DNA of 64,000 nt from a virus, in the IMG/VR virus record IMGVR_UViG_3300034072_000373, positions 12,030 through 76,029 of that record; one strand, 5' to 3'. This document shows positions 55,309-58,945 of this stretch, piece after piece (position 1 is the first letter of the stretch; each line of letters begins with the position of its first letter). Position numbers and translations under genes: made by a program. The notes under the pieces were generated by a model that saw nothing but the letters and a program-made list of their open reading frames with translations, was not told the DNA's origin and did no database searches.

Positions 55309-55375
55309 CCCCTGAATCATAGAGTTGAAAGATACTTTCCTTCTTCCCTTTTGGTTCAGGGGTTACTTGAAAGGG
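55309..55375 (-). promoter_or_regulatory. Putative -1 programmed ribosomal frameshift signal
   Basis: C CCT TTC heptamer (55375-55369), 6-nt spacer, 8-bp stem CCCCTGAA/TTCAGGGG. Confidence 0.7.
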
Positions 55376-55983
55376 TTCTTGAAACCGCCATCCCCCATGA
55401 GCATCATCAGCATCATGGGATTGGAGAACAGACCTCCGGCATTACCACCGCTCATCATGAGCAGAGGCAGCATGGAGGACATATCCTTGTCACCACTCAT
55501 CAGCATGAGAGGCAGGAGGCTATTCATGTCCATGGTTCCAGAGTTACCTTCACCACCGAACATCGAACCGAATGAACGAACGACAGTCAGACCGTCCTTA
55601 ACGCCCAGCATGGAAACACGCTTGGGACGGAAACGGCTGATATGGCCCTGAACATTGATCGTCTGAATCGAAGCCTTTGCAGCTTCTTCGTCGGAAACCG
55701 ACTTTTTGTCGCCGTCTTCCAACAGGAAACCATATGCCCTGCCATCGGATACAAGAATGTCCCCACGCTTCACTTCGGTAGCAGGCGTCAGCATTGCAAA
55801 TGCTGGGATTTCCATCGAGAAGAAATCCAATGGATTCTGGTCCAGAACATCATCCTTGCCCAGAGTCACCAGACCAGCATTGGTCTTGATGCCTGAAGTG
55901 CCGGATGCAAGATCGTAGCTCACATTGTCGATGGGACGAAACATCGTCTGCATCGCCTTATTCATCGTGCTTTTCATATCCAT
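55363..55983 (-). CDS. Hypothetical protein with Met-rich repeated C-terminus
   Basis: AAGGA RBS; LLPLMLMSG / MLPLLMMSG / NPMMLMMLMG repeats. Confidence 0.75.
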   Translation of the reverse strand: MDMKSTMNKAMQTMFRPIDNVSYDLASGTSGIKTNAGLVTLGKDDVLDQNPLDFFSMEIPAFAMLTPATEVKRGDILVSDGRAYGFLLEDGDKKSVSDEEAAKASIQTINVQGHISRFRPKRVSMLGVKDGLTVVRSFGSMFGGEGNSGTMDMNSLLPLMLMSGDKDMSSMLPLLMMSGGNAGGLFSNPMMLMMLMGDGGFKNPFK

Positions 55984-56068: not shown

Positions 56069-56445
56069 ATCAGCGCCTAACCACACCAATAGAATACAAT
56101 CCGCATTTCCTATCGTTACCGAATAGGAAGCCGTAGCGGAGGTTAGCTGATGAAATTTTAGAGGCCACATCCCCCGATGTGATTAAGCATTAAGCACCTC
56201 TGCCCTGATCCAAGTGAGACACACCACATAACGCCGGGGAGAATTTCGGCAGATGGTAGTCATCTTCTTGGTTCGGGAAACTAAGTGGGTATCATCGTGG
56301 ATCATGACTCCATCACATCAGCCTACCCAAGCTATCCCGCTGCTATATCCGACTACATGGCCCATTGGGATTGAGCGTCATTAAACCATGCAGAAGCATT
56401 CCATTCTCAGAGAGCTACTCCGATTCCAAAGCCCGTTGCAACAGG
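56069..56445 (-). ncRNA. Cluster of putative structured RNA modules 3' of the hammerhead
   Basis: No plausible ORF; abutting closed stems at 56353-56393, 56275-56338, 56210-56271, 56160-56201 and 56069-56151. Confidence 0.55.
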
Positions 56446-56462
56446 TCTATGTATTTAGGAAT

Positions 56463-56510
56463 GTATGTGACACCTAAGTGTTTCGGCTCATTAAGCCTCA
56501 TCAGACATAC
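56463..56510 (-). ncRNA. Type I hammerhead ribozyme
   Basis: GTATGT-CTGATGA-GGCT(TAATG)AGCC-GAAA-CAC(TTAG)GTG-TC^ACATAC: complete core, three stems, GUC cleavage site. Confidence 0.9.
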
Positions 56511-56515
56511 TTGTA

Positions 56516-56848
56516 TTGGCACTTCTGTTGTCAGGCAGTTCCCGCCCCTGTGCTTTTACGCAGCCATGCGGTAGTCGGAGACTACATCGTTGTCGTTGAC
56601 ATTTAAGTTTCAACTGTCAGCTTAGGGCTGCCAATCCGATAGCGTTCTGAATCAATCCACATAGTCGATCCTAGTTCACCCCCATCAACTACATTGGTTC
56701 GAAGTGTTCATACCACGTATTCGGGCGTCTCCGGGTTTCCAACCCTAGTATGGCGGATACCATACCGAACCAATGCAGATGGTGGAGGTGACGGGTGCTG
56801 CCCCCGTGTCCTCATGCTTCAATCATCATTCCGAATTACTATCATCGC
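56516..56848 (-). ncRNA. ssrA: Circularly permuted (two-piece) tmRNA, alphaproteobacterial type
   Basis: Acceptor piece ...GACACGGG-GGCAGCA-CCCGT-CACCTCC-A-CCA (ends 56780), intervening hairpin, then GGGGGTGAACTAGGATCGAC (starts 56683); G3.U70; tag VNDNDVVSDYRMAA* at 56600-56556; outer ends approximate. Confidence 0.92.
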
Positions 56849-56898
56849 TTTAAGGTAGTCCATCCTCTGGAACGTGTCCAGAGGAACGATAACGAGAA

Positions 56899-58893: not shown

Positions 58894-58930
58894 AAAAAAA
58901 TACGGCCAACAGGGGAATACCCTGTTGGCC
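58894..58930 (-). terminator. Terminator after RNAP2
   Basis: GGCCAACAGGG-TATTC-CCCTGTTGGCC-GTA-TTTTTTT. Confidence 0.85.
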
Positions 58931-58945
58931 ACATATATAGAATAA

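What the first reader, a model, noticed from the sequence alone, without database searches (positions are those of the whole stretch)
56463..56510. Canonical hammerhead ribozyme immediately 3' of the tmRNA coding piece
Seen: stem I GTATGT/ACATAC, CTGATGA, stem II GGCT/AGCC, GAAA, stem III CAC/GTG and a GUC site, predicting cleavage between 56469 and 56468. The ribozyme begins within ~10 nt of the tmRNA terminal GCAC...CAACAGAA-GTGC element. Established: hammerhead cleavage leaves a 2',3'-cyclic phosphate and a 5'-OH. Inference: it releases and end-protects the tmRNA coding piece without host nucleases and gives the downstream modules a decay-resistant 5'-OH. I am not aware of a described hammerhead-tmRNA coupling.
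Basis: partly seen in the sequence, partly recalled or inferred. Interest (0 to 1): 0.87.

Follow-up and report, generated by a model that had tools for sequence, protein, structure and literature searches.

The report
Phage hammerhead ribozyme beside tmRNA gene
A genuine self-cutting hammerhead RNA sits four bases after a phage-borne ribosome-rescue RNA (tmRNA) gene, but related phages show that it travels with the folded RNA downstream of it, not with the tmRNA, so it is an ordinary phage hammerhead in an unusual neighbourhood.

Summary
On the minus strand at 56510-56463 lies a complete type I hammerhead: 6-bp stem I, CUGAUGA, stem II, GAAA, stem III, and a GUC site that cuts between 56469 and 56468. 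It starts 4 nt after a two-piece alpha-type tmRNA (56884-56514).

It is not a chance motif. A model built from 76 other phage hammerheads scores it at 61 bits. It is the only one in the 76-kb N4-like phage genome, and no shuffled genome gave an equal.

It belongs to a large, already known kind: short type I hammerheads between phage genes. Of 86 found here, 76 lie within 40 nt upstream of a gene start.

The proposed tmRNA coupling is not conserved. One syntenic relative (L051) has the hammerhead 1.35 kb upstream of its tmRNA, which ends in an ordinary terminator. Another (L015) has the hammerhead and no tmRNA.

What is conserved is the hammerhead plus about 200 nt of structured RNA directly downstream of it.

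Most likely, the ribozyme cuts the RNA-island transcript to give that downstream RNA a clean 5'-OH end. In this phage the same cut also ends the tmRNA transcript, leaving a 45-nt ribozyme tail. Cleavage itself is untested.

Earlier notes from this scan report hammerheads beside tmRNA-like RNAs in other phages; I did not test those.

The parts
56463..56510 (-). Type I hammerhead ribozyme: stem I GUAUGU/ACAUAC, core CUGAUGA, stem II GGCUU-AAU-GAGCC, GAAA, stem III ACAC-UUAG-GUGU, C17
   Evidence: Sequence; MFE fold equals the hammerhead fold; 61.3 bits, E 1e-12 against class model R1 built without it; no equal in 300 genome shuffles
56468..56469 (-). Predicted self-cleavage site: after C17 (56469), before A1.1 (56468). 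Expected products are an upstream RNA ending in a 2',3'-cyclic phosphate and a downstream RNA starting with 5'-OH ACAUAC
   Evidence: Position follows from the core alignment; the end chemistry is established hammerhead knowledge; not tested here
56514..56884 (-). Phage-encoded circularly permuted (two-piece) alpha-type tmRNA: acceptor piece first, then the coding piece with tag frame VNDNDVVSDYRMAA*
   Evidence: Rfam RF04321 90.8 bits and RF01849 76.9 bits, both above gathering; ARAGORN misses it
56260..56462 (-). Conserved structured RNA block immediately 3' of the cut (CUAAAU, small hairpin, long hairpin UCAAUCCCAAUGGGCC..., then the GAUGUGAU/CGAUGA hairpin), shared with L051 and L015
   Evidence: Alignment A2; consensus fold with 19 of 40 pairs keeping pairing through double changes among three sequences
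56292..56319 (-). k-turn-like hairpin GAUGUGAU-hairpin-CGAUGA, 160 nt after the ribozyme's CGAAAC
   Evidence: Same motif at 157, 160 and 162 nt in L051, the window and L015. In 1.6 Mb of fetched loci it otherwise gave one match, inside L075 and not near a hammerhead, and it is absent from the hammerhead-less relatives L014 and L016-L019
55984..56259 (-). Rest of the gene-free RNA island, between the conserved block and the next gene
   Evidence: No ORF of 50 aa or more on the minus strand; no Rfam match better than E 0.7; no terminator-like site on the minus strand
55363..55983 (-). First protein gene after the island (206 aa, Met-rich, no family), used to find related phages
   Evidence: 65 homologues, several on 72-78 kb contigs; loci L014-L019

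Best explanation
This is a working-type, type I hammerhead ribozyme of the short-stem class that is common between genes in phage transcripts. It lies inside a 2.35-kb non-coding RNA island of an N4-like phage that is read on the minus strand. As the island is transcribed, the ribozyme folds and cuts between 56469 and 56468. The cut gives the conserved folded RNA downstream a defined 5'-OH end carrying only six leftover ribozyme bases. That downstream RNA is the ribozyme's conserved partner in related phages. Because a tmRNA gene has come to lie directly upstream in this phage, the same cut also ends the tmRNA transcript. It takes the place of the intrinsic terminator that follows the tmRNA in the relative L051, while letting transcription run on. 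The tmRNA coding piece would keep a tail of about 45 nt (4-nt linker plus 42 nt of ribozyme) ending in the stem III hairpin and a cyclic phosphate. Shown: the motif, its class membership, its significance, the synteny and the lack of conserved tmRNA linkage. Inferred: cleavage in vivo, co-transcription, and any effect on RNA stability.
For: All core positions and three stems are present. The class model built without this sequence scores it 61.3 bits, E 1e-12. No equal appeared in 300 shuffles. The class is real: a pattern covering only the core and stem II hit 52 IMG/VR contigs. In 51 of them, stems I and III, which were not part of the pattern, also pair. On 76 sequences the stems show 96% pairing and 384 double-change cells, against about 100 in shuffles. 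76 of 86 class members sit 40 nt or less upstream of an ORF start, which is a position for defining a downstream 5' end. L051 and L078/L015 are syntenic N4-like relatives: RNAP2 57-60% identical, then the decoration protein, then the island. Each has one hammerhead, scoring 56.0 and 55.6 bits. In each it is followed by homologous RNA, with GAUGUGA..CGAUGA at 157-162 nt. Relatives without the hammerhead also lack that module. The L051 tmRNA (106 bits) lies 1.35 kb after the hammerhead and ends in a terminator hairpin with a U run. Active hammerheads flanking genes in phage-related polycistronic RNAs are published (PMC3088659).
Against: Only three phages carry the hammerhead-plus-block unit, so the covariation rests on three sequences. 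The function of the downstream block is unknown. Promoters of N4-like phages are not covered by the promoter scan, so co-transcription of the tmRNA, ribozyme and block is assumed from shared strand, the 4-nt spacing and the absence of a terminator. In a 201-nt context the MFE fold replaces stem I with other pairings, though the centroid keeps stems II and III. The tertiary contact needed for fast cleavage was not established.
Confidence: 0.65

Rival explanations
1. One reading: the hammerhead is a dedicated tmRNA maturation device. It evolved to release the tmRNA coding piece and to protect its 3' end with a cyclic phosphate, independently of host nucleases.
For: The spacing is 4 nt and there is no terminator after the tmRNA. 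The cut would leave a terminal hairpin plus cyclic phosphate where L051 has a terminator hairpin. Phage ribozymes that trim a translation RNA are known for tRNAs (theta ribozymes, PMC10879173). Earlier scan notes report hammerheads beside tmRNA-like RNAs in other phages (not tested here).
Against: The adjacency is seen once. L051 has both elements 1.35 kb apart and in the opposite order, and L015 has the hammerhead without a tmRNA. A type I hammerhead leaves about 45 nt of itself on the upstream product, unlike HDV-like ribozymes, which leave none. Pattern scans of IMG/VR and of 185,579 species genomes found no second case. These scans required exact CAACAGAA, CUGAUGAG and CGAAAC, so divergent cases would be missed.
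Confidence: 0.15
2. It is an ordinary intercistronic mRNA cutter for the next protein gene (206 aa, 55983-55363). Like most members of its class, it separates that gene's message from upstream RNA, and the 480 nt in between form a long structured leader.
For: 88% of class members lie 40 nt or less before an ORF start. The 206-aa gene is the next gene on the same strand, with no predicted terminator in between.
Against: The gene starts about 485 nt after the cut here and about 1.8 kb after it in L015. In L051 the conserved block is followed by more RNA modules and a tmRNA, and the contig was not returned by the homologue search. The RNA right after the cut is conserved in structure, not in coding.
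Confidence: 0.12
3. It is a chance match or an inactive relic that no longer cleaves.
For: Rfam models stay below their gathering scores. The fold z-score of the isolated motif is only -1.0. The 3' flank of stem I is AUU rather than the class-typical AAA/AAC.
Against: There were 0 equal hits in 300 shuffled genomes. It gets the highest score of any sequence tested against the class model. Every core base is intact. Orthologous hammerheads in L051 and L015 keep the stems through compensatory changes.
Confidence: 0.05

Closest known systems
Type I hammerhead ribozymes in intergenic regions of phages and prophages (Perreault et al. 2011, PMC3088659; Rfam clan CL00010)
   Same: Identical catalytic core, three-way junction and open stem I. 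It lies in a phage transcript between functional units. Several per genome, flanking genes, is common in the class and was published with in vitro and in vivo cleavage.
   Different: Here it is a single copy per genome. It is flanked on both sides by non-coding RNAs (tmRNA upstream, structured RNA downstream) rather than by a gene. It falls below Rfam gathering scores.
Theta (minimal HDV-like) ribozymes next to phage tRNA genes (Kienbeck et al. 2024, PMC10879173)
   Same: A phage self-cleaving ribozyme placed directly 3' of a translation-related RNA and proposed to make its 3' end without host RNases.
   Different: It is a different ribozyme class. HDV-like ribozymes cut at their own 5' edge and leave the tRNA free of ribozyme, whereas this hammerhead would leave about 45 nt on the tmRNA. 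The theta-tRNA link recurs in hundreds of phages; this tmRNA link is seen once.
Phage-encoded two-piece tmRNAs, e.g. methylophage Melnitz, with a glnA riboswitch in the ssrA 3' domain (Buchholz et al. 2022, PMC9004378)
   Same: An alpha-type permuted tmRNA carried by a phage, with another functional RNA element attached at its 3' side.
   Different: The attached element there is a riboswitch, not a ribozyme, and the host phage is a myovirus of marine bacteria, not an N4-like podovirus.
RAGATH-1 hammerhead (Rfam RF03152)
   Same: It is the only Rfam model that aligns the motif in the correct type I register, including an upstream hairpin matched to the tmRNA tail (27.5 bits).
   Different: The score is about half the gathering score. 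RAGATH-1 has a minimal stem II, whereas this class has a 4-5 bp stem II with a conserved U-N-A loop.

Membership tests
Hammerhead ribozyme | Conserved core C3 U4 G5 A6 N7 G8 A9 and G12 A13 A14 | tested here: met
   CUGAUGA and GAA are present in the right places
Hammerhead ribozyme | Three helices around the core, with G10.1-C11.1 opening stem II and A15.1-U16.1 opening stem III | tested here: met
   Stem I 6 bp, stem II 4-5 bp starting G-C, stem III 4 bp starting A-U; the MFE fold agrees
Hammerhead ribozyme | Cleavage-site triplet N-U-H (H17 not G) | tested here: met
   GUC, with C17 = 56469
Hammerhead ribozyme | Helices supported by covariation in homologues | tested here: met
   Class alignment: 13 of 16 pairs have double changes and 96% of cells are paired, against 33-37% when the partners are slid. 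These sequences were chosen by a pairing descriptor. The independent check is that 51 of 52 contigs found by a core-plus-stem-II pattern alone also pair stems I and III. The orthologues L051 and L015 differ in all three stems yet keep the pairing
Hammerhead ribozyme | Tertiary contact between the stem I region and loop II for fast cleavage at cellular Mg | tested here: inconclusive
   The class has an invariant 6-bp stem I flanked by A (5') and mostly AA (3'), and a conserved loop II. The window has A and AUU. No structural test was possible
Hammerhead ribozyme | Site-specific self-cleavage | not testable with these tools
Rfam hammerhead families (RF00008, RF00163, RF03152 and clan) | Score at or above the family's gathering threshold | tested here: not met
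   Best scores are 26.8 bits (threshold 48.5) and 27.5 bits (threshold 56.3). The class-specific model R1 gives 61.3 bits
Ribozyme dedicated to maturing an adjacent translation RNA (as theta ribozymes are for tRNA) | Adjacency to that RNA conserved across homologues | tested here: not met
   In L051 the two elements are separated by 1.35 kb and in reverse order; L015 has no tmRNA; pattern scans found no second adjacent case
Ribozyme dedicated to maturing an adjacent translation RNA (as theta ribozymes are for tRNA) | The cut falls at or next to the mature end of the served RNA | tested here: not met
   The cut lies 45 nt beyond the end of the Rfam tmRNA model (56514 against 56469)
Two-piece (permuted) alpha-type tmRNA | Match to RF04321 / RF01849 above gathering, with acceptor piece before coding piece and a tag frame | tested here: met
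   90.8 and 76.9 bits; the CCA end comes before GGGGGUGAA; the tag ends in MAA plus a stop codon

The most novel reading that the evidence does not exclude
The hammerhead is the built-in 5' processing element of an undescribed structured non-coding RNA: ribozyme, about 160 nt of conserved hairpins, then a k-turn-like GAUGUGAU/CGAUGA hairpin. This unit forms the conserved core of the RNA islands in a clade of N4-like phages. In this phage the same cut has also been taken over as a terminator-free 3'-end maker for a phage tmRNA. That would be the first case of a hammerhead shaping a tmRNA transcript.
Probability: 0.4. Interest if true: 0.6.

Novelty: new member of a known kind. Interest (0 to 1): 0.4.

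Why it matters
Few natural hammerheads have a known job. This one has clear neighbours on both sides in a compact phage RNA island. It therefore offers a simple test of what a phage gains from ribozyme cutting: a defined 5'-OH end on a conserved folded RNA, and a terminator-free end for a tmRNA. The comparative result also warns against reading function from adjacency in a single genome. The broader class recovered here has a fixed 6-bp stem I, sits mostly just before gene starts, and is missed by Rfam thresholds. It may be useful for annotating phage genomes.

Tried and rejected
3. The window's RNAP2 as a single-protein query in IMG/VR found nothing. Cultured relatives (Rhizobium phage RHph_I1_6, Erwinia phage phiEaP8; at most 58% RNAP2 identity) have no RNA island at this position.
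4. blastn of the island against GenBank phages gave no match.
5. The pattern CAACAGAA + CUGAUGAG + CGAAAC gave 10 loci in IMG/VR. Some hold true hammerheads, but none has a tmRNA. The weak alpha_tmRNA hit in L005 and the GGCAACAGAA in L011 lie in coding sequence.
6. The same pattern gave 60 loci in 185,579 species genomes, about the number expected by chance. None had a tmRNA or a hammerhead fold.
7. A metagenome scan for hammerhead + GATGTGAT gave 30 loci, none related.
8. A scan with the tmRNA acceptor-arm pattern found only L051 and one other tmRNA, identical in seven short contigs, with no hammerhead within 400 nt after its acceptor arm.
9. ARAGORN misses this tmRNA, so it was not a usable screen.
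10. L068, another N4-like contig, has a class hammerhead preceded by CCACAGAAAAUCC. No tmRNA was detected there, and it lies in a different genome position, next to the giant virion RNA polymerase gene.
11. A possible alternative pairing between the tmRNA tail and the 5' strand of stem I appears in the 201-nt MFE fold. It is weak and not significant, so I did not build on it.

Full report
**What is there**

The window is the last 64 kb of a 76,029-base IMG/VR virus record that CheckV rates complete. Its genes mark it as an N4-like podovirus. They include RNA polymerase 2 (phrog_2051, E 7e-160), an ATPase and an HNH endonuclease. RNAP2 is at most 58% identical to any GenBank phage.

On the minus strand, a gene-free island runs from 58337 to 55984. 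It lies between the capsid-decoration gene and a 206-aa gene. Within it, Rfam finds a circularly permuted alpha-type tmRNA at 56884-56514 (RF04321 90.8 bits, RF01849 76.9 bits).

Four bases later the minus strand reads GUAUGU CUGAUGA GGCUUAAUGAGCC GAAA CACUUAGGUG UC ACAUAC, at 56510-56463. This is a textbook type I hammerhead:
- a 6-bp open stem I;
- the full core;
- G10.1-C11.1 and A15.1-U16.1;
- C17 at 56469.

The isolated sequence folds into exactly this shape.

**Is it more than chance?**

Yes, on three counts.
- A descriptor scan finds a single hammerhead in the whole genome. Across 300 dinucleotide-preserving shuffles there were no hits of equal quality and nine lax hits in total.
- A pattern covering only the core and stem II (CTGATGAGNCTTNATGAGNCGAAAC) hit 52 IMG/VR contigs. 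In 51 of them, stems I and III, which the pattern did not specify, also pair.
- From these loci I collected 76 distinct hammerheads without the window's. They show heavy covariation: 96% of cells pair, against 33-37% when partners are slid, and there are 384 double-change cells against about 100 in shuffles. The model built from them scores the window's motif 61.3 bits, E about 1e-12. That was the best of all sequences searched and the only hit in the window.

Rfam's own hammerhead models stay below threshold (26.8 and 27.5 bits). This explains why the motif would go unannotated.

**What the class usually does**

Members have a strikingly constant 6-bp stem I with A-rich flanks. They often occur several times per contig, 300-1000 nt apart. 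Of 86 instances with unique context, 76 have an ORF start within 40 nt after the ribozyme, typically 13-35 nt.

This is the published picture of phage and prophage hammerheads that flank genes in polycistronic RNAs and cleave in vitro and in vivo (PMC3088659). A type I hammerhead leaves nearly all of itself on the upstream product and only six bases on the downstream one. That design suits making a clean downstream 5' end.

**Is it coupled to the tmRNA?**

I found three phages that share the synteny RNAP2, decoration protein, RNA island: the window, L051 (62-kb contig) and L015/L078 (73-kb contig). RNAP2 is 57-60% identical and the decoration protein 37-39% identical. Each has exactly one hammerhead (56.0 and 55.6 bits in the two relatives).

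The upstream neighbour differs in each:
- In the window the hammerhead follows the tmRNA by 4 nt.
- In L051 it sits about 66 nt after the decoration gene, at the very start of the island. The L051 tmRNA (106 bits) lies 1.35 kb further downstream and is followed by an intrinsic terminator: a CCCACG...CGUGGG hairpin plus a U run.
- In L015 it lies 360 nt after a tRNA-Arg, and no tmRNA is detected.

What is constant is the RNA after the cut:
- a CUAAAU stretch, a small hairpin and a long hairpin;
- a k-turn-like GAUGUGAU-hairpin-CGAUGA element whose distance from CGAAAC is 157, 160 and 162 nt in the three phages;
- a consensus fold in which 19 of 40 pairs survive double changes.

That element gave only one other match in 1.6 Mb of fetched loci, inside L075 and not near a hammerhead. 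It is missing from the related islands that lack a hammerhead, L014 and L016-L019.

Pattern scans for a tmRNA tail followed by a hammerhead core found no second case in IMG/VR or in 185,579 species genomes. The caveat is that these scans required exact CAACAGAA, CUGAUGAG and CGAAAC. The ribozyme's conserved partner is therefore the downstream RNA. The tmRNA adjacency is a single-genome arrangement.

**Most likely mechanism**

The island is transcribed on the minus strand together with its flanking genes. This is inferred from three things: shared strand, the 4-nt spacing, and no terminator-like site between 56884 and 55984 on that strand. N4-type promoters could not be scanned.

The hammerhead cuts co-transcriptionally. 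The downstream structured RNA then starts with 5'-OH ACAUAC. The upstream product ends in the stem III hairpin with a 2',3'-cyclic phosphate.

For the tmRNA this means a coding piece with about 45 extra nucleotides, not a precisely released molecule. The ribozyme stands where L051 has a terminator. It can thus be read as a terminator substitute that allows read-through into the downstream RNA. Whether the tail is trimmed, tolerated or protective is unknown.

**Comparison with known systems and novelty**

- The ribozyme is a new member of a known kind.
- Phage-encoded two-piece tmRNAs are known; Melnitz even carries a riboswitch in the 3' domain of its ssrA (PMC9004378).
- Ribozyme-assisted 3' processing of phage tRNAs is known for HDV-like theta ribozymes (PMC10879173).
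- Among the 20 listed of the 53 library papers that mention both hammerhead ribozymes and tmRNA, none is, by title or abstract, about a coupling. The exact juxtaposition therefore appears unreported.
- Earlier notes from this scan describe hammerheads beside tmRNA-like modules in lambdoid and Klebsiella phages, and hammerhead-led structured RNAs in jumbo phages. I did not test them. They fit the general theme that phage RNA islands use hammerheads as punctuation.

**Limits**

- Cleavage is untested.
- The conserved unit rests on three phages.
- The function of the downstream RNA is unknown.

**Verdict**

Interest is moderate: a real ribozyme in an interesting RNA island, but an ordinary class member whose link to the tmRNA is not conserved.

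Noticed in passing
The tRNA mimic may be a YrlA-type Y RNA module.
   Followed up: no
window 58900-58934 (-): A strong terminator-like hairpin (15 pairs, then UUUUUUU) lies right after the RNAP2 gene. It overlaps the ATG that the ORF list gives as the start of the 198-aa decoration gene, so that gene probably starts further in.
   Followed up: no
L051 2348-4231 (-): A related N4-like phage has a 1.9-kb RNA island ordered hammerhead, conserved block, further modules, two-piece tmRNA (tag ANDNSPVMALRLAA), intrinsic terminator. The same parts as in the window appear in a different order.
   Followed up: partly
L091 2780-4753; L081 7153-11098; L076 55-1273; L072 1308-2949; L056 5407-7710: Arrays of four or five class hammerheads, 300-1300 nt apart on one strand of a single phage contig, each just before a gene start. 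Stem I sequences are often near-identical within an array.
   Followed up: partly
L004, L006-L010, L013 (contigs of 1.8-4.8 kb): Seven short IMG/VR contigs from related samples carry an identical type I hammerhead (AACAC-CUGAUGA-GGCC..., cleavage triplet GUU) near a contig end. This may be a small replicon or a repeated element.
   Followed up: no
L014 3349-3462 (+) and 426-1205 (+): In a related N4-like island there is a tRNA match spanning 114 nt (42.9 bits), which suggests an interrupted or intron-bearing tRNA. There is also a faint group I intron match (22.7 bits, below threshold).
   Followed up: no
L018 1814-6924 (+): Another relative (87-kb contig) fills the equivalent island with at least ten tRNA genes and no hammerhead. 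The island is a variable cargo site for translation-related RNAs.
   Followed up: no
L068 1940-2460 (+): An N4-like contig with a class hammerhead in a different genome position, next to the giant virion RNA polymerase gene. It is preceded by about 470 nt of gene-free, GC-rich sequence ending in CCACAGAAAAUCC, which recalls the tmRNA tail, but no tmRNA was detected.
   Followed up: partly
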